Shown: positions 6,632 to 23,729 of the stretch, one piece after another
Position numbering within the stretch: position 1 is the stretch's first letter
Layout: every line of letters starts with the position of its first letter
Source: Oculatellaceae cyanobacterium bins.114
GTDB lineage: Bacteria; Cyanobacteriota; Cyanobacteriia; Elainellales; Elainellaceae
Length of the DNA: 64,000 nucleotides
Reading direction: 5' to 3'
Assembly (NCBI GenBank): GCA_033764315.1
Contig: JANRJA010000203.1
Span: 20,678 to 84,677, forward strand
Position numbers and translations under genes: made by a program
Notes under the pieces: model-generated
What the model was told of the DNA's origin: nothing
What the model saw: only the letters and a program-made list of their open reading frames with translations
Database searches by the model: none

Positions 6632-8230
6632 TTAACGTACCGTCTTGAGGCTTTCAATCCGACGGCTAAACAGATCGGTAAAGATGCTTAAGACAGTGCG
6701 ATCGCGAGTAATGATATTTGCAGTTACCGACATCCCAGATTGCAATTGCACGTCTTGGTTAACTTGTCCATCGCTGACTCTGAGAAATTGTTGATCGAGC
6801 GTAATTTGAGCTGGAAAGCGATAGTAAGGATTGATTTGGTCGGGGGGCAAGGCATCCGAGCCGATATTAGTCACTGTACCCTTGATATCCCCAAACTCAC
6901 TAAAGGGAAAAGAATCAATCCGAACATCGACAGGCATTCCTTCACTCACAAAACCAATATCCTGGTTTGTGATGTAGACTTCGGCCACCAAAGCATTACT
7001 GGGCACGATTTTGAGAATCGGTTCACTCGTATTGGCGACAAAGCCAGGACCTTTTGCCTGCAAATCAAACACAGTGCCATCGGTTGGGGCACGCAATGCC
7101 TGATACCGCAAGGTTAATTCTGCTTCACTAAGCTGGCTATCAATTTCAGATAGACGCTTTTCATTTTCAACGATCGCCTTATTCAGTTGACTGTCAATTT
7201 CAGCCAACCGTTTTTCATTTTCAGAGAGGCGATTCAACACATTGTTTTGTGAGAGAGCAACAGTGTTCTGATATTGCTCACCTGCTTGGGCGATCGCAAA
7301 CTGGAGCCGCTGCTGTTCCTGGGTTAGACGATCAACTTCAGCTTGACCATTCATCACTTCCTGCTGTTGCCGCAGGTATTGAATTCGTGCTATGCCACCT
7401 TGTTCAACCAGCGGACGAATATCTTCAAGAATGCCCTGGTCAATTTCAAGAGTAGCCCGTGCTGTTGTGAGCTGTACCAGTGTCTGGCTCAGTTGACGTT
7501 GAAGCTGGGAGACTTCCAATCGTGCTGCTGCTGCTGCCGATTGAGTTTCCATCAGTCCTGACTGGAGCCGAGCCTGTTGATCTGGGGTTAAACCTGCCCC
7601 TGATGAAGAACCAGTCAGTTGAGCACGATAAATCTGATTTTCAGCGATGATAGCCGACCGATTAGACGTTAATGCCAGCATTTCAGGTGGCAAGGTTAAC
7701 CCAGCTCCCTCTGGCACAGGACCATCGATACCACTCAATTGACTGCGATAAAAATTATTTTCTTGAATCAGGGAGGTCTTTATCTGTTGTAAGGAGCGTT
7801 GTTGAGCAGCGGCAGCCGTGGTGTCAAACCGAATCAACACGTCACCCTCTTTAACCTGCTGCCCATCATCTACCAAAATTTCTTTGATCACCCCACCGAC
7901 TGGAGCCTGTACCTCTTGAACCCGATCCTGAGGCTCTAGCTTTCCAGTGGCTGGCACCGCTTCCTCAATCCGAGCAAAGCAAGCCCAAAGCACAACAAAG
8001 GTTGTGACCCCAACAATGCCCCAAACAATAGACCGTGACCACAACGAGGTTTGCTGAAGCAACACAGGTTGGTCAAACGCCTCGGTTCTAACCAACTTAT
8101 TAGAGGCCATCGAGGGAGCTGACTCTTCTGACCCAGTGTCGTTCACCGTCGCCAATGCACCTCGCCCATTGGGTTTGGTTCCGTTACCGCCACCTCCATT
8201 TTGTCCGTTGGATGCAGGATGATTGTTCAT
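6632..8230 (-). CDS. HlyD-family membrane-fusion (periplasmic adaptor) protein
   Basis: 532 aa. N-terminal TM helix IVWGIVGVTTFVVLWACFA, lipoyl-like hairpin GGVIKEILVDDGQQVKEGDVLIRFD, a long coiled coil with an internal 18-aa duplication (ENEKRLAEIDSQL / ENEKRLSEIDSQL), and a C-terminal beta-barrel region. Confidence 0.9.
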   Translation of the reverse strand: MNNHPASNGQNGGGGNGTKPNGRGALATVNDTGSEESAPSMASNKLVRTEAFDQPVLLQQTSLWSRSIVWGIVGVTTFVVLWACFARIEEAVPATGKLEPQDRVQEVQAPVGGVIKEILVDDGQQVKEGDVLIRFDTTAAAAQQRSLQQIKTSLIQENNFYRSQLSGIDGPVPEGAGLTLPPEMLALTSNRSAIIAENQIYRAQLTGSSSGAGLTPDQQARLQSGLMETQSAAAAARLEVSQLQRQLSQTLVQLTTARATLEIDQGILEDIRPLVEQGGIARIQYLRQQQEVMNGQAEVDRLTQEQQRLQFAIAQAGEQYQNTVALSQNNVLNRLSENEKRLAEIDSQLNKAIVENEKRLSEIDSQLSEAELTLRYQALRAPTDGTVFDLQAKGPGFVANTSEPILKIVPSNALVAEVYITNQDIGFVSEGMPVDVRIDSFPFSEFGDIKGTVTNIGSDALPPDQINPYYRFPAQITLDQQFLRVSDGQVNQDVQLQSGMSVTANIITRDRTVLSIFTDLFSRRIESLKTVR

Positions 8231-8313
8231 AGAAATCCAGGTTTGAGAGTTCAGTGAGCGAAACTTAAGCGTTAGTCGATCGGGAATGATGCTGGTGATG
8301 ATTTTAGATGATC

Positions 8314-11289
8314 TTACATCTGAGATTCTTGTTGTTGGTATAGACAGTAGTAGCGTCCCTTGAGTGCCATCAGCTCATCGTGGGTGCCCTGTTCAACAAC
8401 AGAACCCTTATCCATTAAAACAATCTGGTCGGCGTTGCGGATAGTGCTGAGACGGTGAGTGATAAAGAAGACGGTACGACCCTGAAAAGCATCTGCCAGA
8501 TTGAGACAGACTCGACGTTCCGAATCATAGTCTAGCGCACTCGTCGCCTCGTCTAAGATCAACAGTCCCGGGTTTTGAAGCACCGTACGAGCGATCGCAA
8601 TCCGTTGTCGTTGTCCCCCTGACAGGGCAGAGCCTCGTTCTCCCACGCGGGTATTGTATCCATTGGGCAAACTCATGATGAAATCATGGGCGGCGGCGAC
8701 TTCTGCGGCACGAATAATGTCATCAGACGAAGCATCCGGGCAGTTTAAGGCAATGTTTTCTTGAACTGAGCCTTCAAACAACAGGGTGTCCTGTGGCACA
8801 ATCCCAATCTGTTGACGCAGCGAGTAGAGTTCTACCTTGCTAATATCATAACCGTCGATCAAGATACGACCCGATTCCAGATCATACAAACGAGGCAGCA
8901 ATTTCATCAACGTACTCTTACCAGAACCACTCTGTCCGACAATGCCCACAAACATGCCTGCCGGAAACTCTAGGCTGACATTGTTGAGCTGTAGTGGCCC
9001 TGTTGTGCCAAAGCGAAACGAGACACTGTCATAGGTCACTGCCCCTTGAATCGAAGGCATAGGAATGTTGTAGCGATCGACTTCGTCTGCTTCGGGTGCC
9101 GCATCCACAATGTCACTGAGGCGTTCGATTGATAGCCCAACTTCCTGAAAGTTTTGCCACAACTGCGCCAACCGCAATAGCGGGCTAGTCACATAGCCTG
9201 CAATGATGCGAAACGCGATTAACTGCCCCAGGGTCAAATTGCCTTTGAGCACCAGATAGGCTCCCACCCAGAGCACCAGCAAGCCAGACAACTGGTTGAG
9301 GAAGTTGCTCGTAGAACTGGCGGTAGTTGACGTCAAGACCGTTTGGAAGCCAGCACTGACATAGCGAGCATAGCGTTGTTGCCATTGCCAGCGGGCGCGT
9401 AGTTCCATGTTTTGAGCCTTAACGGTTTGAATCCCTGAAACAACCTCGACTAAATAAGACTGAGTTTCAGCGTTCCGCTCTGCTTTGGTGCGAAGCTGAT
9501 TGCGAATCAACGGAGAGGCGATCGCCGCCAATATCACAAAGAAAGGAATCGTCACCAACGATACGAGGGTCAAAATCCAACTGTAGATGAACATGACCAC
9601 GATATAGATCACCGAGAACACGGCATCTAATACCACCGTTAAAGCAGTCCCCGTCAGAAATTGACGAATGTTTTCTAACTCGTTAATCCGAGTTGCCAGT
9701 TCACCGACCGGTCGCCGCTCAAAATAACGCAAGGGCAAGCGCAACAGGTGATCAATAATCTCTGACCCCAGTGCCATATCGATGCGGTTGGTCGTATCCA
9801 CAAAGAGATACGTTCGCAAACTGGTGAGAATCGCCTCAAAAATCGCCAGCACCAGCAGGAAAACCCCTAGAACTTGCAGTGTGTCTACACTCTCCTGCAC
9901 GATTACCTTGTCAATAATCACCTGAATCATCAGTGGGTTTGCCAAAGCAAACAACTGCACAAAGAACGAGGCAATAAAGACCTCCCACAACACCCGCTGA
10001 TGCTTCTTAATGGAGGGCAGGAACCACTCTAAGCCAAACCGCTTTTGGGGGGTTTGCTGAGTCGGCTTCAGCAAGAGGACTTCCCCTTGCTCTCCCCAAG
10101 TTTCAACAAACTCAGCGGGCTTCCGCCGAACGATCCCCATATCAGGCACGGCAACTACCAGTTCTCGTTCACTCACTTCATATAGCAGAACGACTGTATC
10201 TTGCCATTTCAACAGGGCCGGTGCCTCTAACCGACCAATCGCATTGGCAGGCACCATCACTAATTGAGCATTTAAGCCCATCAATTCTGAGACTGCGCCA
10301 CACAGTTCGAGCGACATACTCCCTGTTCGCTGGCTCTGGCTAACCAGGATGCGTTGCACCACATCTCGTCGGAAGGGAATATTGAGATGCTGACACAGCA
10401 TTTGGAAACACGCTAATGCTCCGTCGATCGGCCCTGTACCCCGAATGAACGGATAGTTTTGAGTTGTGGTTTTGCCAGTCGTAGAGCGAATTTGGGGATC
10501 AGCCTCAGAAGGGCGATCGGGGGCATAGGGAATATCAACTTCGGCAGGAGTTGTGGCGACTGCTGGCTCTGCAATCGTCGTTGCCATCGGTTGCAAGATG
10601 GTTTTAGGAATCCCCAAAATACGGGCGGGTTCTGACCCAGTCACCTCTAATTGAGAAACCGCTTCGACTTTAATCGAGCTACCTACCTCAAACTGCTCGA
10701 TCGCCCCACCTCCACTCACTAACCAGAGACGATTAGACTCTAACGGAGTCGTCGGAGTGCTACCGGGTGGCAAGTTGCAAATCACAGCATCAGCTTGGGC
10801 TTGTAATGCTAAATCTTTAAGGACTACATCTCCGATCGCTTGTCGATGAATCTCAGCCCCTAATAAGTCAAACACTTCAATCAGAGAACACTGACTACGA
10901 AACACCGCTGCCATTTCTGGCTCACGTTCTAGCAATGCTAGAAAGTCAGTAGCAGATAGCACTAAAGAAATTGTTTCAATCGAGGCGATCGCCGTTTCAC
11001 AGGGCACCCCACGCACCAACCCAACCCAACCCAAAATCGCACCCGGTTGTGCCAAGCCCAGCGTAACAGGTCGCTGTGTCCGAGGATCGTACCCCAATTG
11101 CCGTGCCTGCCCCTCATAAATAATATTGAGCTGAGCTGGCATCTTGTCTCGCACTAACATTGCCTGCCCCATGCGATAGCGCAGCAATTGCAACTGTTCT
11201 GCTAATGCAGCCAGTGCATCCGCAGAGAGCAGATCAAACGGGGGCACCGTAGCCAAAAATTCTAAGACAGTGGTTTTGGTATAAGTCAT
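8314..11289 (-). CDS. ABC exporter with N-terminal cNMP-binding-like and C39-peptidase-like domains (HlyB-type)
   Basis: 991 aa. cNMP-binding-like region at aa ~25-240, C39-like region at aa ~278-410, then a TM exporter domain. NBD has Walker A GQSGSGKST, signature LSGGQRQR and Walker B LLILDEATS. Confidence 0.9.
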   Translation of the reverse strand: MTYTKTTVLEFLATVPPFDLLSADALAALAEQLQLLRYRMGQAMLVRDKMPAQLNIIYEGQARQLGYDPRTQRPVTLGLAQPGAILGWVGLVRGVPCETAIASIETISLVLSATDFLALLEREPEMAAVFRSQCSLIEVFDLLGAEIHRQAIGDVVLKDLALQAQADAVICNLPPGSTPTTPLESNRLWLVSGGGAIEQFEVGSSIKVEAVSQLEVTGSEPARILGIPKTILQPMATTIAEPAVATTPAEVDIPYAPDRPSEADPQIRSTTGKTTTQNYPFIRGTGPIDGALACFQMLCQHLNIPFRRDVVQRILVSQSQRTGSMSLELCGAVSELMGLNAQLVMVPANAIGRLEAPALLKWQDTVVLLYEVSERELVVAVPDMGIVRRKPAEFVETWGEQGEVLLLKPTQQTPQKRFGLEWFLPSIKKHQRVLWEVFIASFFVQLFALANPLMIQVIIDKVIVQESVDTLQVLGVFLLVLAIFEAILTSLRTYLFVDTTNRIDMALGSEIIDHLLRLPLRYFERRPVGELATRINELENIRQFLTGTALTVVLDAVFSVIYIVVMFIYSWILTLVSLVTIPFFVILAAIASPLIRNQLRTKAERNAETQSYLVEVVSGIQTVKAQNMELRARWQWQQRYARYVSAGFQTVLTSTTASSTSNFLNQLSGLLVLWVGAYLVLKGNLTLGQLIAFRIIAGYVTSPLLRLAQLWQNFQEVGLSIERLSDIVDAAPEADEVDRYNIPMPSIQGAVTYDSVSFRFGTTGPLQLNNVSLEFPAGMFVGIVGQSGSGKSTLMKLLPRLYDLESGRILIDGYDISKVELYSLRQQIGIVPQDTLLFEGSVQENIALNCPDASSDDIIRAAEVAAAHDFIMSLPNGYNTRVGERGSALSGGQRQRIAIARTVLQNPGLLILDEATSALDYDSERRVCLNLADAFQGRTVFFITHRLSTIRNADQIVLMDKGSVVEQGTHDELMALKGRYYCLYQQQESQM

Positions 11290-12038
11290 GGGGCAGTCGA
11301 AGCCGAGGAGGTATTAGAAGGAATGAGATTAATCTGACCGAGTTGTTCTTGCAGCCACGTGTTAAACAGCTCATTTAGCAAACGTCGCCGCATAGCGTCA
11401 TCTAACTGAGCTGGAATGAATCGCTCTAGTCGCACAATTACCAGCCACTCACCAACACGAGTCGGTGCCCACAACTGGCCAGGTTGACTGATAGAGAGCA
11501 TTTGCGCCAGAGTCGGATTGGGCACACTCAATTCAACAGGACCAATTAAACCATCGGTTTGTGCCTCTGGCCCTTGTGAATACGTGCGCGCCAACTCCGC
11601 AAAGGATTGTTCCCCTTCCAGCACTCGAAAATACACTTCTTGAGCAATCCCTAAATCTTGCGTCCGAATTAATGAATAGATAACGCGATCGAGTTGAGAT
11701 TTGCGATTGAGGAAATAGGACTCTAGCTTGGGGCCCCACGTTGATTGCTTAAATTTTTCAATCTTGACCTCACGCATGGCACGCGCCTCAAGCTGAGTGG
11801 CAGTCATGCCATGTTGTTGCAACCAGGCTCTACGGCTCTCTTCTGACGCCAAACCATGTTGAGCATAGAACTGTTGACAGGCCGCCTCTTTCTCTTCAGA
11901 GGTACATTCTATGGTGGCGATCGCCTGATCAATCAAGATCTCTTGTAGCAGTTGAGGCAGCATTTGATAGCTCGCTAATAGCGGAATAACCTCTTCTGCT
12001 AAAATCTGACGATTTCCAACCTGTAAAACGACAGTCAT
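11286..12038 (-). CDS. Peptidyl-prolyl isomerase-like protein (PpiC/parvulin type)
   Basis: 250 aa. The C-terminal half resembles a parvulin rotamase domain (FAELARTYSQGPEAQTDGLIGPV...WLVIVRLE). Its stop overlaps the ABC start (ATGA at 11286-11289). Confidence 0.7.
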   Translation of the reverse strand: MTVVLQVGNRQILAEEVIPLLASYQMLPQLLQEILIDQAIATIECTSEEKEAACQQFYAQHGLASEESRRAWLQQHGMTATQLEARAMREVKIEKFKQSTWGPKLESYFLNRKSQLDRVIYSLIRTQDLGIAQEVYFRVLEGEQSFAELARTYSQGPEAQTDGLIGPVELSVPNPTLAQMLSISQPGQLWAPTRVGEWLVIVRLERFIPAQLDDAMRRRLLNELFNTWLQEQLGQINLIPSNTSSASTAP

Positions 12039-17952: not shown

Positions 17953-18075
17953 GTGTGACAGACATCTGCATCGATCATTGTCGATCGGTTGTTTAAAACT
18001 GCGGCAGAAGATTTATACAACATTACGTTTGTTTAGAAATCTAGATTAAGGTTTGTGAGTAGAGAGAGGCTGAGG

Positions 18076-18110
18076 TTTGAATTTTGAGTTTTGAACTTTG
18101 AATTGTGAAT
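18076..18110. repeat. Five heptamers TTTGARN, the inverted complement of the 18165-18318 array
   Basis: tttgaat tttgagt tttgaac tttgaat tgtgaat. TTTGAGT is the exact reverse complement of ACTCAAA. Confidence 0.75.
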
Positions 18111-18164
18111 TAGAGGTCGAGAGCGATTAGAAATTGGCCATCGACTGTTATCTCAACACCCCGG

Positions 18165-18318
18165 CCTCAAACCTCAAACCTCAAACCTCAAACCTCAAAA
18201 CCCAAAACCCAAAACTCAAAACTCAAAACCCAAAACTCAAAACCCAAAACTCAAAACCCAAAACTCAAAACTCAAAACCCAAAACTCAAAACCCAAAACT
18301 CAAAACCCAAAACCCAAA
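18165..18318. repeat. Heptanucleotide tandem array (STRR-like), 22 units
   Basis: 5 x CCTCAAA (18165-18199) followed by 17 x AC(C/T)CAAA (18200-18318). It abuts the stop codon (18328-18330) of the TIR gene. Confidence 0.95.
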
Positions 18319-18327
18319 ACCTCCTAC

Positions 18328-19695
18328 CTAATAGTCCTCCTTAGGTGGACGGGTGACTCGTAAAATGAGCGCACTCAATCCTAGAAACCAAATCAGGGCG
18401 ATCAAATAGGCCATTGACATTAACTTACGTACTGATTGCTTAAGGCTAACCACATAATCGGCATGAACATCTAGCCCGATCGCCCCAACCACCACTCCAC
18501 GAGAATTACGAATGGGCGCATATGCAGCAAATTGGGCACCCCGTTGATCACGACTGACAAAGGTTGTGAGGCTGAGTTGCGAGAGCCCTTGATAAATAGC
18601 CGAGTTAGATTGATCGATTGTGAATGGCTGCCGAAATGTCGTTGCCTGTTCAGGAGCAATCTTTCTTAAAACGTCTCCAATGATCAAGATCTCACGAGGC
18701 TGATCACCCCAGGTATAGCTGTAGGGATTGGCATAGGGAACTAGAGTATGCACTCGATAGAGCCATTCTTGATGGCTGCGATAGAGAGCATTATTAGTGG
18801 GTTCAGTTTGTCCAGCAAGCAGAGGAGTGCGGGTCAGGGTGGCAAACTCCTCGCCATTTACTCCATCCACTGTCGCATTCAACGCCTGCACCATCTCGCC
18901 TTTAATACGAGCAACCGTGGTCTCCCAAAGATAGTAGTAAAACCAATAAAACCCTAAAGTGACGATCGCCATATTGACAACAACAGTTGTCACCATCACA
19001 ATCCATTTAGCGCGTTGGCGCGATTGATAAAGTGCCAGTTTGGCCGCTTGACTAGCATCAATGTAGCGGTTTTGAAGCTCGGTTGGCTTAAGGTCTTGGT
19101 TGATGCTGCTTGCAAGCCACTGCTCAGCATCCTTTAAGTCGCTGCCCCGTAATAAATAGCTGTCGTTGTAGTCTTTGCGTTTCCACTCGATCGCCCGAAC
19201 CAAAAGACGAGTGTGAGCATGGATATAGTCAATATCTGTGTTGACTGCCTGGAGCAATTCTTGAAAGGCGTGATCGAAGTCATCCGTTTCTCGGAAAAAG
19301 ATCCAGTTGTGTTTGCTGATTTGAGGGTGCACTTGTTGAGGATCAAATCCCTCTCGCCGCACGATTGGCAAAAAGCGTTTGTGGCAATGAGTCGCGTATT
19401 CAATTTCATCTCGACAAACCTTAGAGGTAACTGAGTCAGGGCTAATCACAAAAATGAATGTGCTAGCAGACTCAATGCCTCGTTGAATGGCTTGCCACCA
19501 CTCTTCCCCTTTATAGATGTCATTCCAATCAACCCACGGATCTTGCCCAACCCGCTTAAATGCCCCGTCTAGCATCTCAACAAATGCTTTATCTCGACGA
19601 GAGTAAGAGATAAATACCTCGTTGGTTGGTGCTTTAGTCTCACTGGGTTGTGATTGAGTATGAACAGCAATATTAGACGATTGACCCTCAAGCAT
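18328..19695 (-). CDS. TIR-domain protein with TM - Cache/PDC-like extracytoplasmic domain - TM
   Basis: 455 aa. TIR at aa ~26-150 (VFISYSRRD; SPDSVTSKVCRDEIEYA; FLPIV). Helical module HTRLLVRAIEW...LLRGSDLKDAEQWL. Hydrophobic spans at aa ~231-256 and ~425-445 bracket a ~170-aa domain ending RDQRGAQFAAYAPIRNSRGVVVGAIGLDVHADYV. Confidence 0.85.
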   Translation of the reverse strand: MLEGQSSNIAVHTQSQPSETKAPTNEVFISYSRRDKAFVEMLDGAFKRVGQDPWVDWNDIYKGEEWWQAIQRGIESASTFIFVISPDSVTSKVCRDEIEYATHCHKRFLPIVRREGFDPQQVHPQISKHNWIFFRETDDFDHAFQELLQAVNTDIDYIHAHTRLLVRAIEWKRKDYNDSYLLRGSDLKDAEQWLASSINQDLKPTELQNRYIDASQAAKLALYQSRQRAKWIVMVTTVVVNMAIVTLGFYWFYYYLWETTVARIKGEMVQALNATVDGVNGEEFATLTRTPLLAGQTEPTNNALYRSHQEWLYRVHTLVPYANPYSYTWGDQPREILIIGDVLRKIAPEQATTFRQPFTIDQSNSAIYQGLSQLSLTTFVSRDQRGAQFAAYAPIRNSRGVVVGAIGLDVHADYVVSLKQSVRKLMSMAYLIALIWFLGLSALILRVTRPPKEDY

Positions 19696-19824
19696 GATTG
19701 ATGCCCCCGACAGCAGTGATTATTTGCTTGTACTCACTCTAAACGACCGTTTTGAAAGGGTAAAGGATTAAACACTGAAGCGTAGAATAAGGTCGATTTT
19801 TATTCTTGATGTTTTGCCAGCTAA

Positions 19825-19893
19825 CTGAGGACATAGAGGGTGTGGGGGCGGTGCCCCCAGCCAGGGGTTCCACCCCTGCACCCCGTCCTAACC
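19825..19893. repeat. GC-rich double-hairpin dispersed repeat (inverted copy of 44080-44131)
   Basis: Its reverse complement reads GGTTAGGACGGGGTGCAGGGGTGGAACCCCTGGCTGGGGGCACCGCCCCCACACCCTC..CCTCAG. The copy at 44080 reads GGTTAGAACGGGGTGCACCCCTGGCTAGGGCTTTGCCCCCAAACCTCCTCAG. Confidence 0.8.
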
Positions 19894-19925
19894 TGAATGA
19901 CTACGGCTATACCTCTCATCTTGGC

Positions 19926-22706
19926 TCACGGTTTCTGCTGAAACTGTTGACAAGTGTTTTGAGCACCTGCGATCGCGTCTTTTTCAGACGGAGTCAGTTT
20001 TGCATTCAAGTGTGCCAAGAAACTATAACCTTGAAACTGATTACAGGCGATCGCTAACCACCGTTGCCAGGTCATATCGTGCCAAAGATACAGCGTGCCC
20101 ATCTCATCTCCAGTCACAATCGTGTGTCCGTCAGGTTGAAAAGCAACGGCAGAGATGACTTTACCTTGTTCTCTAAACGCCTGCCCCAGTGGATTGCCGT
20201 TGGTGTCCCACAGTCTCAGAGTGCCATCTTCACTGGTGCTCGCGATCGTTTTTCCATCAGGGCTATAGGCAACAGCCGTGATATAGCCTTCATGTCCTTG
20301 AAACGGACTGCCCAACAGCCTTTTTGCCTCGACATCCCACTGCCGCAAAATGCCATCGCCCCCTGCACTCACCACCACCTCTCCCGTTGGGTTAAAGGCA
20401 ACAGCTGCAATGCCAAACTGCTGCTCTTCTTGAAAAACGGCTAGAGAACGCCCTTGCAGATCCCACAGGCGAATGGTGGAGTCATCGCCACTACTGGCAA
20501 TCAAGTCTCCCTTTGGGCTAAAAGCCACCGATCGGACGCTGCTTTGATGTCTCTGAAAGGGTTGCCCTATCGGTCGCTGTTCTTTGACGCTCCATAACTG
20601 AATTGTGCCATCGTCGCTACCACTGATAACCGTTTGACCATCGGGGCTGAAGGCGACCGATTGAATCGCCCCATCATGCTCTACCAAAGGTGCTCCGAGA
20701 GGTTGCCGTTGCTGCACATCCCAAAAGCGGAGTGAGCCATCAGCTCCAGCACTGACTAAAACGGTACCAGAGGGATCAAAAGCGATCGCATTCACCCCAT
20801 CTGAATGGGCTTGCAACGGAGAACCAACCTGTTTCCCAGTGATATCCCAAAAGCGAATGGTGCCATCGTCACTGGCACTGGCAAAGGTGCGATCGTGGGG
20901 ATTAAAGGCGATGGATGGAATAGCATCGTCATGGGCTGACACCCGTTGACTTGTCATCAGATTTTGCACATTCCACAGGCGAATCGTGCGATCGGCACTG
21001 GCGCTAATCAAGGTTTCGCCATCTAAGCTAAACACAGCAGGAAAGACAAACCCCTCATGTCCGCGAATGGGGGTGCCGATCGCGTTGCCCTGCAAATCCC
21101 ACAGGCGAATGGTGCGATCGTTACTAGCACTAGCGATCGTCTGACCATCGGGACTAAAGACAACGGCTTGAATGGCAGATTCATGCCCAATGAACGGTAA
21201 GTCGATGGGGTTGCCCTCCAAATCCCATAGACGCACCGTGTTGTCACTTCCTCCACTGATCAGCTTTTGACCATCAGGGCTAAAGGCAACGGTCAATACG
21301 GCACCGTCATGCCCTCGAAAGGGTTCTCCCTGCGGTTGTCCTTGACGATTCCACAGGCGAATGGTGTCATCTACACTGCCGCTAGCGATGATTTGACCAT
21401 TAGGGCTAAATACAACACTATACACAGAGTCGCTGTGCCCCTCAAACGGTTTTCCGATTGCCTGCCCTGATACATCCCATAGGTACACCTTCCCATCATC
21501 ACTCCCGCTGACGATCTGCTGGCTATCAGGGCTAATTGCCAGTGAGTTTACAGCCCGATTTTGGGCTTGAACTGATTCGCCAATCCGATGTCCATCTGCT
21601 GTCCATCGCACAATCCTACCGTTGGCATCACCACTGACAATCAGTTGCCCATCAGGACTCCAGGCGATCGCATAAATTTCGGAGTCACTCGCCTGAATTG
21701 GTTCCCCAATCGGCTCACCCGTTTCCAAATTCCAGAATCGCAGAACACCTTTATTATCAGTACTCGCTAATCGTGTTCTATCTGGATTCAGGGCGATCGC
21801 ATAGATCTCTCCCTCATGCCCCAACAAACGGTCTTTTTCTCGATTGCCCTGAATCGCGCTGAGTAAACTCGCTCGTGCTTCATCAAAGACCTCCTGTGAA
21901 GGGTTTTGTAGACTAGTACCGATCGTGTGTAGTGCCAAAATCAATCCACTGGTTGGCTTTACCGCCATCAAATTATTGACTCGTGCGACTCTTTCCCGTA
22001 ACTCTGCCTCAGCTCGTCGATGGTGTTCTGCCTTACGATATTGCTCAAATGCAATTAGGGTTGAAGTTGCCGTAATCACCAACCCCAGTGAAATGGCACC
22101 TATCGTTAAGCGTTCTCGTCGAACCACTTTGCGGCTGGTACAAACAAAATCGATCTGCAAGGGCGCAGGTTGAGGATCTTTAGTTCCTGCCTCAGTCAGC
22201 CATCGTTCTGCCTTTCTTAAGTCACGGCCTCTCAGCAAACAACTTGAGTCTTGTCCTTGCTCCTTCCATTCGTTGGCTCGCACCAACAGCCGAGTGTGAA
22301 AGGTAACGTGTTCCAGGTCGGTTTCGAGTGTCTTGATTAACTTTGCAACCGATTCATCAAAGGAATTCGTTTCTTTGAAAAAAATCCAGTTGATGGACGC
22401 CAAGGTTGGATGAACCTGGCCGTATTGCACCTCTTTGCAGACGATCGGGATAAGCCGCTTACTAGAGGCGACCGCCAGTTCTAACTCAATACTGCATTCT
22501 CGTGATGCCACCCATTCTGGGCTGAGCACAAAAACAACCGCATTGGCTTGTTTAATGCCATCAGCAATTTCAGCCCGCCAATCCGCACTGGGGGGAATAT
22601 CTTCCCAATCGATCCAGACATCCTTACCCTGCCCCACTAAAAAACTGTGGAGTTTATCAACAAATTCCTTATCTCTACGACAGTAGGAAATAAATACATC
22701 TGTCAT
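19926..22706 (-). CDS. TIR-domain protein with hydrophobic span and 14 WD40 repeats
   Basis: Start moved to ATG 22706 (GGAGG 4 nt upstream; the track ORF extends to 22808). 926 aa. TIR motifs VFISYCRRD, SPEWVASRECSIELELA and LIPIV. Helical module HTRLLVRANEW...LLRGRDLRKAERWL. Hydrophobic segment LTIGAISLGLVITATSTLIAF at aa ~200-220. Fourteen ~42-aa WD40 units (GH..V..VAFSPDG..I.SGS.D.TIRLWD) at ~20070-21840. Confidence 0.9.
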   Translation of the reverse strand: MTDVFISYCRRDKEFVDKLHSFLVGQGKDVWIDWEDIPPSADWRAEIADGIKQANAVVFVLSPEWVASRECSIELELAVASSKRLIPIVCKEVQYGQVHPTLASINWIFFKETNSFDESVAKLIKTLETDLEHVTFHTRLLVRANEWKEQGQDSSCLLRGRDLRKAERWLTEAGTKDPQPAPLQIDFVCTSRKVVRRERLTIGAISLGLVITATSTLIAFEQYRKAEHHRRAEAELRERVARVNNLMAVKPTSGLILALHTIGTSLQNPSQEVFDEARASLLSAIQGNREKDRLLGHEGEIYAIALNPDRTRLASTDNKGVLRFWNLETGEPIGEPIQASDSEIYAIAWSPDGQLIVSGDANGRIVRWTADGHRIGESVQAQNRAVNSLAISPDSQQIVSGSDDGKVYLWDVSGQAIGKPFEGHSDSVYSVVFSPNGQIIASGSVDDTIRLWNRQGQPQGEPFRGHDGAVLTVAFSPDGQKLISGGSDNTVRLWDLEGNPIDLPFIGHESAIQAVVFSPDGQTIASASNDRTIRLWDLQGNAIGTPIRGHEGFVFPAVFSLDGETLISASADRTIRLWNVQNLMTSQRVSAHDDAIPSIAFNPHDRTFASASDDGTIRFWDITGKQVGSPLQAHSDGVNAIAFDPSGTVLVSAGADGSLRFWDVQQRQPLGAPLVEHDGAIQSVAFSPDGQTVISGSDDGTIQLWSVKEQRPIGQPFQRHQSSVRSVAFSPKGDLIASSGDDSTIRLWDLQGRSLAVFQEEQQFGIAAVAFNPTGEVVVSAGGDGILRQWDVEAKRLLGSPFQGHEGYITAVAYSPDGKTIASTSEDGTLRLWDTNGNPLGQAFREQGKVISAVAFQPDGHTIVTGDEMGTLYLWHDMTWQRWLAIACNQFQGYSFLAHLNAKLTPSEKDAIAGAQNTCQQFQQKP

Positions 22707-22743
22707 GGTGCCTCCAGCTTGGCGGAAGTGGCAGTTGCAAAGA

Positions 22744-23019
22744 TTAAGAAGGTCGTGGAGCCGGAGAACGTGGAGTCGGAGATGGAGTGGTCGTTTCACA
22801 GGGACCAAGACGGGAAGTCTCCTGACGCCGACAGGGAGGAGTTCTCACTGCTTTGGGTTCGCCTGTTTTGGATAGGGTGGTATGAGGCGATTCTCCTTTG
22901 AGGGCGATCGCTGCTGCATATAAAGGTGTTGTAGCAATTAACGGCAACAAAGCCCCTGTGATGAGAGTAGCTCCTAATAGTAGGCTTGCGAGTTTATCTT
23001 TATATCTAGTTTGAGTCAT
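22744..23019 (-). CDS. Small membrane protein with Pro/Thr/Arg-rich tail (91 aa)
   Basis: Hydrophobic helix LASLLLGATLITGALLPLIATTPLYAAAIAL followed by the tail ...TTTPSPTPRSPAPRPS. Its ATG overlaps the stop of the upstream gene (ATGA, 23016-23019). It ends 37 nt before the TIR-WD40 start. Confidence 0.5.
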   Translation of the reverse strand: MTQTRYKDKLASLLLGATLITGALLPLIATTPLYAAAIALKGESPHTTLSKTGEPKAVRTPPCRRQETSRLGPCETTTPSPTPRSPAPRPS

Positions 23020-23729
23020 CTTCTTCCCTCACCCCAGTTACCAGAAGGACGAACCCTTCTTCCATCAAAACGAACAATGGGTCCTTCAATGCTAGTGCCG
23101 TCTGCGTTACAAACTTCAATTTCTCTTACAATTTGCTCTTGGCCATCACTGTATACACCTCTAAAGTCATAAAGACATTCGTTGGAGTCAACAGGAATTA
23201 TGGCTATATCACCCGGAGATAGCTCCTGTGCAATTAGATCTTCACCCCAGTCGGCTTGAGTGACCGGAGTGAAATAAATTTCTAATAACGGAAGATCAGC
23301 CGTGTTTTGGATATTAAACGTTCTATCGTTGTCGTCGTAGTAGGTGTAAGTACCCTCGTCAATGCAGAGATCGACCTGATTTTCGTCAATGGGTGGTCCT
23401 TGATCAAACACACCTCGGACATCATAGAAACAGTCACTCCGACTGTCATCCACAACAATTTCTCGGACATCTCCCGGAGCAACCGAATCACCCTGCAACT
23501 TCTCAGCTTCTTCTTCCCAGGTAGATACATCGGTTGGCGAGACATAAAACTCCAACAACGTATAGTCTGTGAAGTTTTCAACCGTAAATGATAAGGGATC
23601 GCTCAGCTCATCTTGAGCCAATGCTCGTTGACCCCTAAAGGGGAAGTGCGTTGCATCGCCTCCCCAAGTCAAAATGGGTAAAGTCACAGCAGTTGCGATC
23701 AGAACTGAGTGACCCAGGTTTTTAAGCAT
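23016..23729 (-). CDS. Exported acidic protein made of two ~85-aa Cys-containing repeats
   Basis: Start moved to ATG 23729 (AGGAG 7 nt upstream). N-terminal signal-like MLKNLGHSVLIATAVTLPILTW. Repeat 1 is FTVENFTDYTLLEFYVSP..W.....PGD..EIVVDDSRSDCFYDVRGVFDQG....VDLC. Repeat 2 is FNIQNTADLPLLEIYFTP..W.....PGD..IIPVDSNECLYDFRGVYSDG....IEVC. Confidence 0.65.
   Translation of the reverse strand: MLKNLGHSVLIATAVTLPILTWGGDATHFPFRGQRALAQDELSDPLSFTVENFTDYTLLEFYVSPTDVSTWEEEAEKLQGDSVAPGDVREIVVDDSRSDCFYDVRGVFDQGPPIDENQVDLCIDEGTYTYYDDNDRTFNIQNTADLPLLEIYFTPVTQADWGEDLIAQELSPGDIAIIPVDSNECLYDFRGVYSDGQEQIVREIEVCNADGTSIEGPIVRFDGRRVRPSGNWGEGRR

What the first reader, a model, noticed from the sequence alone, without database searches (positions are those of the whole stretch)
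18328..23729. Candidate undescribed system: two membrane-anchored TIR proteins with extracytoplasmic-looking sensor parts, plus exported partner proteins
The genes run in order on the minus strand.
- A (23016-23729): an exported two-repeat Cys protein.
- B (22744-23019): a one-helix protein with a Pro-rich tail. Its start overlaps the stop of A.
- C (19926-22706): TIR + hydrophobic span + 14 WD40 repeats. It starts 37 nt after B.
- D (18328-19695): TIR + TM + Cache-like domain + TM. It follows after a 230-nt spacer that carries a GC-rich hairpin repeat.

Both TIR domains keep the beta-A motif VFISY(S/C)RRD. Both keep the Glu in S(K/R).C..E(I/L) (E97 in D, E74 in C), which corresponds to the catalytic Glu of NAD-cleaving TIR domains. 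They also share a post-TIR helical module, HTRLLVRA.EW....LLRG.DL..AE.WL, so they are paralogues with swapped sensor parts.

The cluster and its flanks contain no SIR2/SLOG/Macro (ThsA-like) protein, STING, cGAS-like cyclase, NACHT/AAA STAND ATPase, caspase or nuclease. It therefore does not fit Thoeris, TIR-CBASS/Pycsar or Avs-type layouts.

The predicted topology is a cytoplasmic N-terminal TIR with the ligand- or protein-binding domain outside. That is the topology of animal Toll-like receptors, not of known bacterial TIR defence proteins. The function could be envelope- or phage-adsorption-triggered NAD depletion, or cell-cell or self-recognition signalling.
Basis: partly seen in the sequence, partly recalled or inferred. 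Interest (0 to 1): 0.8.

Follow-up and report, generated by a model that had tools for sequence, protein, structure and literature searches.

The report
Membrane-anchored TIR receptors in a cyanobacterium
Two neighbouring cyanobacterial genes encode proteins that seem to carry an NAD-cleaving TIR domain inside the cell and a sensor domain (Cache-like or WD40 propellers) outside it; this receptor layout has not been described for bacterial TIR proteins, but the four genes are not one system.

Summary
All four ORFs, both TIR domains, the conserved Glu (E97 in D, E74 in C), the shared post-TIR helical module, the 14 WD40 repeats and the hydrophobic spans are present at the stated coordinates.

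The Cache-like call for D is weak by Pfam (E 0.09). It is strong by structure: AlphaFold pLDDT 93, with Foldseek hits to WalK, Tlp3 and DctB sensor domains.

The "four-gene system" reading fails.
- D belongs to a stand-alone family of about 85 full-length homologues in thin filamentous cyanobacteria. In four other genomes it sits alone in unrelated housekeeping contexts.
- A-B-C recurs as a trio without D in other contigs.
- The A-B pair recurs without C, next to a TPR protein with hydrophobic segments instead.

C and D share a constant cassette of TIR, helical linker and TM helix. Across cyanobacteria this cassette is fused to interchangeable C-terminal parts: Cache-like, WD40, DUF4101, CHAT or coiled coil.

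Four lines support a TIR-in, sensor-out topology: flanking charges, Cys distribution, the structure model, and the exported partners. None is experimental.

The locus is not in a defence island, and no Thoeris, CBASS or STAND partner is present.

Verdict: a new architectural variant of sensor-coupled TIR enzymes. It is uncharacterised and moderately to highly interesting.

The parts
18328..19695 (-). Gene D: stand-alone transmembrane receptor-type TIR protein (455 aa)
   Evidence: ORF. About 85 full-length homologues at 40-79% identity in filamentous cyanobacteria. Found alone in other genomes.
19240..19620 (-). D TIR domain (aa 26-152), with E97 at the catalytic position
   Evidence: Pfam TIR_2 E 1e-26. 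E97 aligns to the Glu of plant TIR 7xoz and Cat1 and is invariant in 80 sequences. Foldseek best hits are SPARTA TIR-APAZ, SARM1 and AbTir.
19012..19239 (-). D post-TIR helical module (aa 153-228), containing HTRLLVRAIEW...LLRGSDLKDAEQW
   Evidence: Shared with C. Modelled as helices 155-173, 184-199 and the start of helix 206-277. Mean identity 52% in the family.
18928..19011 (-). D TM1 (aa 229-256), signal-anchor helix
   Evidence: Kyte-Doolittle 2.08. Part of one continuous modelled helix 206-277. Flanking K+R is 5.2 on the N side against 2.2 on the C side across 84 homologues.
18436..18927 (-). D predicted periplasmic single Cache/PDC-like sensor domain (aa 257-420)
   Evidence: AlphaFold pLDDT 92.9. 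Foldseek hits: WalK/YycG extracellular domain (TM-score 0.65-0.69), Tlp3, DctB and KinD Cache domains. Conserved residues include F284, Y305, H308, Q309, W311, Y327, D341 and R344. Pfam Cache only E 0.09.
18355..18435 (-). D TM2 (aa 421-447), followed by only 8 residues
   Evidence: Kyte-Doolittle 2.22. Modelled helix 412-447. Present in nearly all D homologues.
19837..19884 (-). GC-rich stem-loop in the C-D spacer, starting 41 nt after the C stop; possible transcript boundary
   Evidence: Fold of 19835-19925: -43 kcal/mol, z -1.9. Single copy in the window. No U-tract, and not called as a terminator.
19926..22706 (-). Gene C: TIR + helical module + TM + 14 WD40 (926 aa)
   Evidence: Orthologues at 70% (L001), 75% (L006, partial) and 57% (L004/5) identity, always preceded by A-B.
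22317..22706 (-). C TIR domain (aa 1-130), with E74 equivalent to D E97
   Evidence: PADLOC and NCBIfam TIR models. PDB TIR hits. C-D alignment.
22110..22316 (-). C post-TIR helical module (aa 131-199)
   Evidence: 43% identity with D over TIR plus module. Motif found at the same position.
22044..22109 (-). C hydrophobic span (aa 200-221), predicted signal-anchor TM helix
   Evidence: Kyte-Doolittle 1.96. The equivalent span lies about 50-58 aa after the LLRG motif in 107 of 113 motif-bearing family members, whatever the C-terminal domain. Charge bias is N-in in 89% of the non-Cache members and never reversed.
20079..21854 (-). C: 14 WD40 repeats (aa 285-876), i.e. two 7-bladed propellers, predicted periplasmic
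   Evidence: Pfam WD40, 14 stretches. Repeat alignment. No Cys in the repeats.
19929..20078 (-). C C-terminal tail (aa 877-926) with a conserved Cys pair (C888, C919)
   Evidence: The Cys pair is conserved in L001 and L004 orthologues. A C-terminal Cys pair is also present in P0101, P0104, P0112 and P0115.
22744..23019 (-). Gene B: small exported or anchored protein (91 aa) with a CRR-x-GPC Cys pair and a Pro/Ser-rich tail
   Evidence: Conserved after A in L001, L004/5, L006, L011 and L022, and apparently fused to A-like repeats in L019. No family hit.
23016..23729 (-). Gene A: exported protein with two ~80-aa repeats, each carrying a conserved Cys pair
   Evidence: The repeat is a widespread unannotated domain: 2466 representative proteins, some fused to trypsin-like peptidase, PDZ or kinase+FGE-sulfatase. 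No Pfam, PADLOC, NCBIfam or PDB match.

Best explanation
The region holds two separate units, not one system.

**Shared cassette.** C and D are paralogous members of a large cyanobacterial family built from a constant N-terminal cassette. The cassette is an enzyme-type TIR domain, a ~75-aa helical linker and a signal-anchor TM helix. It is fused to interchangeable C-terminal parts that lie outside the cytoplasmic membrane.

**D.** D is a stand-alone one-component transmembrane receptor: cytoplasmic TIR, a continuous helix through TM1, a periplasmic single Cache/PDC-like ligand-binding domain, and TM2.

**C.** C carries the same cassette with two WD40 propellers in the periplasm. It is probably co-transcribed with A and B, two small exported disulfide-type proteins that are its likely periplasmic partners or ligands.

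**Proposed mechanism.**
1. A small molecule (D) or a protein or peptide (C) binds to the outside domain.
2. This changes the packing or oligomeric state of the trans-membrane helices and the helical linker.
3. The TIR domains self-associate.
4. NAD+ cleavage is switched on, giving either NAD+ depletion or an ADP-ribose-derived signal.

**What is shown and what is inferred.**
- Shown: domain content, conservation and gene-neighbourhood patterns.
- Strongly indicated in silico: the topology.
- Inferred: catalysis, the direction of signalling and the A/B-C interaction.

A physiological or envelope-signalling role is more likely than classical phage defence.
For: **Domains.**
- TIR_2 in D at E 1e-26. 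The catalytic-position Glu aligns with a plant TIR cyclase and Cat1 and is invariant in 80 homologues.
- The D model's TIR is closest to the NADase TIRs of SPARTA, SARM1 and AbTir.
- The D outside domain is modelled at pLDDT 93 as a PDC/Cache fold between two TM helices. It matches WalK, Tlp3, DctB and KinD sensor domains.
- In the full-length model, one helix (206-277) runs from the linker through TM1 into the sensor.

**Cassette.**
- Among the 113 hits that carry the LLRG motif, 107 have a hydrophobic span about 50-58 aa after it. Their C-terminal parts are Cache-like, WD40, DUF4101, CHAT or coiled coil.

**Topology.**
- Flanking K+R is 5.2 on the N side against 2.2 on the C side in the Cache group (N>C in 99%). 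In the other architectures it is 4.8 against 2.7 and never reversed.
- C has 5 Cys in its 199 N-terminal residues and only 2 in the 705 residues after the TM, both in the C-terminal tail (Fisher p 0.007).
- Even Cys counts after the TM, including a C-terminal pair, recur in all seven family members whose C-terminus is complete.
- D has no Cys after TM1.
- A and B are signal-bearing, Cys-paired proteins. A's repeat occurs in proteins carrying trypsin-like peptidase plus PDZ, or kinase plus FGE-sulfatase domains.

**Gene linkage.**
- D stands alone in Halomicronema, Kovacikia, Leptolyngbya NIES-3755 and Leptolyngbya FACHB-541.
- A-B-C is conserved in L001, L006 and L004/5. In L004/5 the flanks differ.
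- A-B without C lies next to a homologous TPR protein with hydrophobic segments in L011 and L022, and an A-like gene does so in L019.

**Context.** The flanks are housekeeping genes.
Against: - There is no experimental evidence for topology, NADase activity or ligand binding.
- Pfam does not call the Cache domain (E 0.09). Foldseek also lists GAF folds with similar E-values, so only the fold class is firm, not family membership.
- The charge bias around C's own TM is weak: K+R 5 against 4.
- A family member with a CHAT protease after the TM (P0100) would place a caspase-like domain outside the membrane, which is unusual.
- A-B-C synteny is seen only in four contigs of related organisms (A 47-59% identical). 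It could therefore reflect shared ancestry.
- In L004/5 the C orthologue is split by a frameshift.
- No downstream receptor for a TIR product was found nearby.
Confidence: 0.5

Rival explanations
1. A, B, C and D form one four-gene envelope-triggered anti-phage (abortive-infection) system, in which two TIR receptors and two exported partners act together to deplete NAD+.
For: - The four genes are adjacent and on the same strand in the window and in Oscillatoria sp. FACHB-1407.
- Both TIR domains carry the catalytic-position Glu.
- TIR models from PADLOC give hits.
Against: - D occurs alone in four other genomes.
- A-B-C occurs without D, and A-B occurs without C or D.
- The only second four-gene instance is a fully syntenic close relative.
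- A GC-rich hairpin and a 230-nt AT-rich spacer separate C from D.
- There is no defence-island context.
- Conservation is high and orthologue-like, not the pattern of rapid turnover.
Confidence: 0.05
2. The hydrophobic span of C is not a membrane helix, or it is a peripheral or re-entrant anchor. C would then be a cytoplasmic TIR-WD40 sensor, an NTPase-less analogue of STAND/NLR-like proteins, and A-B would be unrelated neighbours.
For: - WD40 arrays fused to TIR, caspase or NTPase effectors in multicellular bacteria are generally discussed as intracellular sensors (PMC7159879).
- The charge bias at C's own span is weak.
- A family member has CHAT after the span.
Against: - The span is conserved in position across 107 family members, including the 2-TM Cache group, where membrane insertion is hard to avoid.
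- The family-wide charge bias is never reversed.
- The propellers are free of Cys, with a conserved C-terminal Cys pair.
- C is consistently preceded by two exported proteins in four contigs.
Confidence: 0.12
3. The TIR domains act as non-catalytic assembly or adaptor modules, as in animal TLR/MyD88 signalling. They would recruit an unknown cytoplasmic partner, or each other through a C-D hetero-association, rather than cleaving NAD+.
For: - C's sequence hits include MyD88 and Toll-related TIRs.
- The conserved ~75-aa helical module after the TIR could be a docking surface.
- No receptor for a TIR-made nucleotide is encoded nearby.
Against: - The catalytic-position Glu is invariant in 80 of 80 D homologues and present in 118 of 120 family hits.
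- The closest structures are the NADase TIRs of SPARTA, SARM1 and AbTir.
- From my own knowledge, all bacterial TIRs with this Glu tested so far are NAD+-consuming enzymes.
Confidence: 0.15
4. A-B has nothing to do with C. It is an independent exported protein pair that happens to lie upstream of C in one lineage.
For: - The A-B pair exists without C in L011 and L022.
- More distant A-like genes have no TIR neighbour.
- Other TIR-TM-WD40 proteins have no A-B.
Against: - The A-B overlap is 4 nt and the B-C gap is 37 nt, on the same strand.
- The trio persists in L004/5, where both flanks differ.
- Where C is absent, the neighbour of the A-like genes is again a repeat protein with hydrophobic segments (TPR), conserved in three contigs. 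This suggests that A(-B) works with such a partner.
Confidence: 0.3

Closest known systems
Sensor-coupled bacterial TIR NADases (TIR-SAVED and TIR-STING in CBASS, TIR-APAZ in SPARTA, ThsB in Thoeris)
   Same: A TIR domain with the catalytic-position Glu, fused or coupled to a sensing module. Activation is presumably by ligand-driven oligomerisation. The D TIR model is structurally closest to SPARTA, SARM1 and AbTir TIRs.
   Different: Those sensors are cytoplasmic and read nucleotides, nucleic acids or phage proteins, and they sit in multi-gene defence operons. Here the sensor part is predicted to be extracytoplasmic, the protein spans the membrane, D is a single stand-alone gene, and there is no defence context.
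Extracytoplasmic Cache/PDC sensor receptors (WalK, DctB and KinD histidine kinases; Tlp3-type chemoreceptors)
   Same: A TM1 - periplasmic PDC/Cache-like fold - TM2 sensor unit, with a long helix leading through the membrane.
   Different: The output domain lies N-terminal to TM1 and is a TIR domain. It is not a C-terminal kinase, MCP, GGDEF or cyclase domain after TM2, and only 8 residues follow TM2. I found no paper that treats TIR as a Cache output.
Animal Toll-like and IL-1 receptors
   Same: A single-pass or membrane-spanning receptor with a repeat or ligand-binding ectodomain and a cytoplasmic TIR domain.
   Different: The domain order is reversed: the TIR is N-terminal, with no signal peptide. 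The ectodomains are WD40 or Cache-like rather than LRR or Ig. The TIR is of the enzyme type rather than the adaptor type. This is analogy only, not homology of architecture.
Effector + repeat-sensor proteins of 'multicellular bacteria' conflict systems (Kaur, Burroughs, Iyer and Aravind 2020/2021; PMC7159879, PMC8195603)
   Same: An N-terminal effector (TIR, caspase/CHAT) fused to WD40 or TPR arrays. They are enriched in filamentous cyanobacteria and have variable domain partners on a constant module.
   Different: No STAND, MoxR or vWA NTPase, EAD/Death-like adaptor or TRADD-N domain was found here. The helical module is all-alpha, not the TRADD-N alpha/beta fold. The WD40 array is stable rather than diversifying.
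Eukaryote-like Ser/Thr kinases with an extracytoplasmic beta-propeller or PASTA sensor (e.g. M. tuberculosis PknD, PknB); from my own knowledge
   Same: A cytoplasmic N-terminal catalytic domain, a single signal-anchor helix, and a large C-terminal extracytoplasmic repeat or propeller sensor.
   Different: The catalytic domain is a TIR, not a kinase.

Membership tests
TIR domain superfamily (Pfam TIR_2 PF13676), enzyme-type | Significant match to the TIR profile or fold | tested here: met
   D: TIR_2 E 1e-26, above the gathering score. C: TIR hits in PADLOC, NCBIfam and PDB. Foldseek places the D model on SPARTA, SARM1 and AbTir TIRs.
TIR domain superfamily (Pfam TIR_2 PF13676), enzyme-type | Glu at the catalytic position (alpha-C, C..E motif) | tested here: met
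   D E97 aligns to the Glu of 7xoz and Cat1. It is invariant in 80 homologues. C E74 is equivalent.
TIR domain superfamily (Pfam TIR_2 PF13676), enzyme-type | NAD+ hydrolase or cyclase activity | not testable with these tools
   Needs a biochemical assay of purified domains and the E74A/E97A mutants.
Thoeris | A ThsB-type TIR gene next to a ThsA effector (SIR2, SLOG, Macro or TM) | tested here: not met
   No such domain in the flanking ORFs scanned between 13600 and 29851 or in ten large ORFs elsewhere in the window. ThsB model hits are weak (E 1e-8 or worse) and cover only the generic TIR core.
CBASS / Pycsar TIR effectors | An adjacent CD-NTase or pyrimidine cyclase, and a SAVED, STING or cNMP-binding domain on the TIR protein | tested here: not met
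   No cyclase, SAVED or STING domain in C, D or their neighbours. The PADLOC SAVED_TIR hit covers only the TIR part, residues 15-98.
STAND / Avs / NLR-like TIR proteins | A central NACHT, NB-ARC or AAA NTPase between the effector and the repeats | tested here: not met
   Between the TIR and WD40 of C there is only the helical module, the TM span and a linker. No NTPase profile hit appears among the families listed.
Cache / PDC extracytoplasmic sensor superfamily | Sequence match to a Cache profile | tested here: inconclusive
   Cache_3-Cache_2 E 0.09, far below the gathering score, covering only residues 389-424.
Cache / PDC extracytoplasmic sensor superfamily | A PDC-type alpha/beta fold with a long N-terminal helix, located between two TM helices | tested here: met
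   Model pLDDT 92.9. Foldseek probability 1.00 to WalK/YycG, Tlp3, DctB and KinD sensor domains; TM-score 0.65-0.69 on WalK extracellular domains. GAF folds are also listed, so the fold class is firm but the subfamily is not.
WD40 beta-propeller | Tandem WD40 repeats in multiples that can close propellers | tested here: met
   14 repeats by Pfam and by manual alignment.
Toll-like receptor architecture | An N-terminal signal peptide and LRR ectodomain, a TM helix and a C-terminal TIR | tested here: not met
   The domain order is reversed and no LRR is present. The resemblance is topological only.
Bacterial TRADD-N / EACC conflict proteins | A TRADD-N (alpha/beta) or EACC domain between the effector and the C-terminal repeats | tested here: not met
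   The post-TIR module is modelled as all-helical. The description of TRADD-N proteins in PMC8195603 does not match.

The most novel reading that the evidence does not exclude
D defines a conserved family of extracytoplasmic-ligand-gated TIR enzymes. This would be the first case where a periplasmic Cache-type small-molecule sensor directly controls a cytoplasmic TIR NADase or cyclase through the membrane, making TIR a new output class of bacterial one-component transmembrane signalling. In filamentous cyanobacteria, NAD-derived nucleotides would then act as physiological second messengers rather than only as phage-defence signals. C, together with its exported partners A and B, would be a protein- or peptide-sensing counterpart. 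That would make it a functional analogue of Toll-like receptors that arose independently.
Probability: 0.3. Interest if true: 0.85.

Novelty: new variant of a known kind. Interest (0 to 1): 0.58.

Why it matters
All bacterial TIR enzymes characterised so far, as far as I know, sense cytoplasmic cues such as nucleotides, nucleic acids or phage proteins, and act in defence.

A conserved family that couples a TIR domain across the membrane to periplasmic Cache-like or WD40 sensor domains would change that picture in three ways.
- It would extend TIR signalling to the sensing of the outside or the envelope.
- It would add a new output domain to the repertoire of transmembrane receptors.
- It would give an independently evolved, experimentally tractable parallel to animal TLR/IL-1R topology.

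The D family is especially testable. It is a single gene, it has about 85 full-length homologues, and it has a well-modelled ligand pocket with invariant Tyr, His, Gln, Trp, Asp and Arg residues.

The work also corrects the tempting "four-gene system" reading. It shows the real units: D alone, and A-B plus a repeat protein with a predicted membrane anchor.

Tried and rejected
**Searches that found nothing or failed.**
- Exact look-up of the window's D protein: not on record.
- First genome-contig scan with a 4-sequence alignment of A: no confirmed relative.
- A 13-sequence alignment of A was too divergent for pattern search.
- Third homologue search, with C residues 130-300 (helical module, TM and linker). 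It was meant to show whether the cassette also follows non-TIR effectors. It returned nothing, not even the source protein. Long WD40 proteins appear to be missing from that index, so the question stays open. From memory, similar "W...LLRG..L..A..W + TM + WD40" cassettes follow NACHT-type NTPases in actinobacteria. This is a lead, not a result.
- Pfam, PADLOC and NCBIfam for A and B: no hits.
- A PDB profile search for A gave only insignificant Ig/FN3-like hits, E 0.08 or worse.
- Literature searches for membrane-anchored bacterial TIR, TIR plus Cache, or TIR-TM-WD40: no description found.

**Ideas considered and rejected.**
- The post-TIR module is a TRADD-N domain. Rejected, because the module is all-helical.
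- The spacer hairpin is a dispersed repeat. Rejected, because it is single copy.
- The WD40 array is a hypervariable, recently expanded sensor. Rejected: 36% inter-repeat identity, and 70% positional identity to the orthologue.
- The promoter and terminator scans gave no more sites than shuffled sequence, so they say nothing about operon structure.

Full report
**1. The observation**

All four ORFs lie on the minus strand at the stated coordinates.
- D is 18328-19695 (455 aa).
- C is 19926-22706 (926 aa from MTDVFISY).
- B is 22744-23019 (91 aa).
- A is 23016-23729 (237 aa).
- The A stop and B start overlap by 4 nt. The B-C gap is 37 nt and the C-D gap is 230 nt.

The TIR domains are real.
- D matches Pfam TIR_2 over residues 27-148 at E 1e-26.
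- C's TIR is recognised by PADLOC and NCBIfam TIR models and by solved TIR structures.
- C and D are 43% identical over their first ~190 residues, including the post-TIR motif HTRLLVRA.EW...LLRG.DL..AE.WL.

C has 14 WD40 repeats of 42-43 aa.

The source is an Oculatellaceae cyanobacterium MAG.

**2. The catalytic Glu**

- D E97 aligns with the Glu of the "C.DEL" motif of a plant TIR ADP-ribosyl cyclase (7xoz) and of Cat1. That this Glu is the catalytic residue is from my knowledge of TIR NADases.
- E97 is invariant in an 80-sequence alignment of the D family.
- The S..C..E motif is present in 118 of 120 family hits.
- C E74 is the equivalent residue.
- The TIR part of the full-length D model is structurally closest to SPARTA TIR-APAZ, SARM1 and AbTir, all of which are NAD+-consuming TIRs.
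- Activity itself was not testable.

**3. What D is**

- A model of TM1, the outside domain and TM2, built on 80 homologues, has mean pLDDT 92.9.
- Foldseek against the PDB returns extracytoplasmic PDC/Cache-type sensor domains. These include WalK/YycG (TM-score 0.65-0.69 on the target), Tlp3, DctB and KinD, as well as a full-length WalK model.
- The related GAF fold is also listed. The fold class is therefore firm, while Pfam membership is not (Cache E 0.09).
- In the full-length model (pLDDT 86), the TIR spans 27-152. Two short helices and then a single long helix (206-277) run from the linker through TM1 into the sensor.
- TM2 is helix 412-447, and only 8 residues follow it.
- The TIR part is much better conserved than the sensor: 69% against 33% mean identity.
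- The sensor nevertheless keeps a set of near-invariant residues: F284, Y305, H308, Q309, W311, Y327, D341 and R344. I read these as a possible conserved ligand pocket.

**4. D is a stand-alone gene**

- About 85 full-length homologues (40-79% identity) occur in thin filamentous cyanobacteria. Genera include Leptolyngbya, Oculatella, Kovacikia, Halomicronema, Stenomitos, Alkalinema and Crinalium.
- In Halomicronema hongdechloris, Kovacikia minuta, Leptolyngbya sp. NIES-3755 and Leptolyngbya sp. FACHB-541, D sits in four different housekeeping neighbourhoods. No A, B or C homologue is nearby (tblastn check).
- Only Oscillatoria sp. FACHB-1407 (D 79% identical) has the window's arrangement. There the entire neighbourhood is syntenic: ChrA, a PhoD-like gene and a GGDEF regulator on one side, TetR, GNAT and a sigma factor on the other. 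That adjacency therefore carries no independent information.

**5. A-B-C is a recurrent trio, and A-B is the tighter pair**

*The trio.*
- A, B and C homologues lie in the same order in L001, with identities of 49%, 43% and 70%.
- They also do so in L006 (56%, 44%, 75%; the contig ends inside C) and in L004/L005 (47%, 41%, 57%).
- In L004/L005 both flanks differ (Uma2-family genes) and D is absent.

*The pair without C.*
- More distant A homologues at 40% identity (L011, a Coleofasciculaceae MAG, and L022, a metagenome contig) are still followed by a B-like small ORF. It has the same hydrophobic N-terminus, Cys pair and Pro-rich tail, but no C or D is present.
- In L011, L019 and L022 the next gene is a convergent, homologous (39-42% identical) ~470-590-aa protein with hydrophobic segments and TPR repeats.
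- In L019 several A-like repeats and a B-like Cys tail appear fused in one 555-aa protein.
- My inference is that A(-B) works with a repeat protein that has a predicted membrane anchor. Its identity differs between lineages: TIR-TM-WD40 here, a TPR protein elsewhere.
- Other TIR-TM-WD40 proteins, with 7 repeats, lie in unrelated contexts without A-B.

*A's repeat.*
- It is a widespread unannotated ~80-aa domain with a conserved Cys pair.
- It is found in 2466 representative proteins at E<=1e-3, with 1-7 matched stretches per protein.
- Of ten multi-domain members scanned, five carry a trypsin-like peptidase (one also PDZ) and one a Ser/Thr kinase plus FGE-sulfatase domain.
- I take these to be extracytoplasmic contexts, from general knowledge of HtrA-like proteases.

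**6. The constant cassette**

- Among the 120 best hits to D, 113 carry the LLRG motif. In 107 of these a hydrophobic span of about 20-23 residues lies 50-58 residues after the motif, whatever follows.
- What follows can be a Cache-like domain plus TM2, WD40 repeats, DUF4101 (PF13355), a coiled coil plus CHAT, or a coiled coil only. Some proteins carry three TIR-plus-helical units in tandem before the TM.
- C and D are therefore two members of a modular family, not a specific pair.

**7. Topology**

All evidence is in silico and agrees on TIR inside and C-terminal part outside.
- There is no signal peptide before the TIR.
- Flanking charges follow the positive-inside rule. K+R is 5.2 on the N side against 2.2 on the C side in 84 Cache-type members (N>C in 99%). 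It is 4.8 against 2.7 in 27 other members and never reversed.
- C has 5 Cys in its 199 N-terminal residues but only 2 in the 705 residues after the span, both in the C-terminal tail (Fisher p 0.007). The pair is conserved in the orthologues.
- After the TM, Cys counts are even, including a C-terminal pair, in all seven family members with complete C-termini.
- D has no Cys after TM1.
- The D sensor has the fold and the two-TM framing of known periplasmic sensors.
- The genes upstream of C encode exported Cys-paired proteins.

The weak points are that the charge bias at C's own span is small (5 against 4) and that a CHAT-bearing member would put a caspase-like domain outside the membrane.

**8. 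Context and function**

- The flanks encode a sigma factor, GNAT, TetR, ChrA, a PhoD-like phosphatase and a GGDEF response regulator.
- The ten large ORFs scanned in the rest of the window encode a Ser/Thr kinase, two histidine kinases, RecJ, a C39-ABC exporter with its HlyD partner, a rotamase, an amidohydrolase, a porin and ResB.
- There is no defence island and no ThsA-like, cyclase, SAVED/STING or STAND partner.
- The WD40 array is stable, not diversifying.
- The C-D spacer carries a GC-rich stem-loop followed by AT-rich sequence. This is compatible with separate transcription of D. The consensus promoter and terminator scan was uninformative.
- Most likely, outside ligand binding is transmitted through the TM helix or helices and the helical linker to drive TIR self-association and NAD+ cleavage. 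The ligand would be a small molecule for D and a protein or peptide, possibly A or B, for C. This step is inferred by analogy with oligomerisation-activated TIR enzymes and with helix-coupled Cache receptors.

**9. Comparison and novelty**

- It works like sensor-coupled TIR NADases (TIR-SAVED, TIR-STING, SPARTA) and like Cache-type transmembrane receptors. It is not a member of Thoeris, CBASS/Pycsar, Avs/STAND, TRADD-N or TLR families; the membership table gives the tests.
- TIR-WD40 fusions in cyanobacteria are known as architectures (PMC7159879, PMC8195603, PMC7517822).
- I found no description of the transmembrane receptor reading, or of a TIR-TM-Cache-TM family, in the searchable literature.
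- I rate it a new variant of a known kind, with interest 0.58. The architecture and conservation are solid and the idea is testable. Against that, activity, topology and biology are unproven, and the "system" as proposed does not hold.

Noticed in passing
window 18166-18320 (and 18071-18111): A heptanucleotide tandem repeat, CTCAAAA x22 (90% matches), starts 8 nt after the D stop codon. It creates a spurious plus-strand ORF (18134-18331) encoding KTQNPKL repeats. A second short array, TTTGAAT x5, lies nearby. From memory it resembles the short tandemly repeated heptamers (STRR) of filamentous cyanobacteria.
   Followed up: partly
L004 1905-4755 and L005 1412-4262: The C orthologue is split by a frameshift near residue 140 into a 145-aa TIR ORF and an 809-aa helical-TM-WD40 ORF. 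The split appears in two separately assembled records (JGI and Logan). It could be a pseudogene, a natural split or a shared sequencing error.
   Followed up: partly
L011 9091-10494 (-), L022 7032-8543 (-), L019 9522-11288 (-): A homologous (39-42% identical) ~470-590-aa protein with hydrophobic segments and TPR repeats lies convergent to the A(-B) genes in three unrelated contigs. It is a possible alternative partner of the exported A-B pair where C is absent.
   Followed up: partly
L019 7821-9488: A 555-aa signal-peptide protein carries several A-like repeats and a C-terminal B-like Cys tail (PPRGKTCLARSKSNVCR). This is an apparent A-B fusion.
   Followed up: no
window 23016-23729 (A repeat); proteins P0124-P0273: The ~80-aa Cys-pair repeat of A is a large family with no Pfam, NCBIfam or PDB match: 2466 representative proteins at E<=1e-3, with 1-7 matched stretches per protein. 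Some members are fused to trypsin-like peptidase/PDZ or to Ser/Thr kinase plus FGE-sulfatase. It is a candidate new extracytoplasmic domain family.
   Followed up: partly
L011 10736-11929 and 12041-16261: Next to the A-B locus of the Coleofasciculaceae MAG lie two genes. One is a caspase-domain (Peptidase_C14) protein with a Tat-like signal (RRHFLQF). The other is a 1406-aa repeat-rich protein with an N-terminal signal-like sequence; I read it by eye as TPR-CHAT, without a domain scan. They suggest that caspase-like effectors can be exported in these organisms.
   Followed up: no
proteins P0087-P0090: Some cyanobacterial proteins carry three tandem copies of the TIR plus helical-module unit. 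In P0090 these are followed by a TM helix and a coiled coil.
   Followed up: no
window 6632-12038: A HlyD-family protein, a C39-peptidase ABC exporter and a PPIase-domain protein form a peptide-export-type locus about 7 kb from the cluster. The exporter and PPIase genes are also seen in FACHB-1407 (L001 17801-21368). No link to B was found.
   Followed up: no
P0014 and P0065: Public annotations of D homologues are misleading. The Halomicronema hongdechloris protein is named 'histidine kinase' and the Leptolyngbya sp. NIES-3755 protein 'RHS Repeat family protein'. Both are TIR-TM-Cache-like-TM proteins.
   Followed up: yes
L002 7390-9321: In Halomicronema the gene upstream of the D homologue carries an eCIS_core (PF13699/DUF4157) domain. 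This is not seen next to other D homologues.
   Followed up: no
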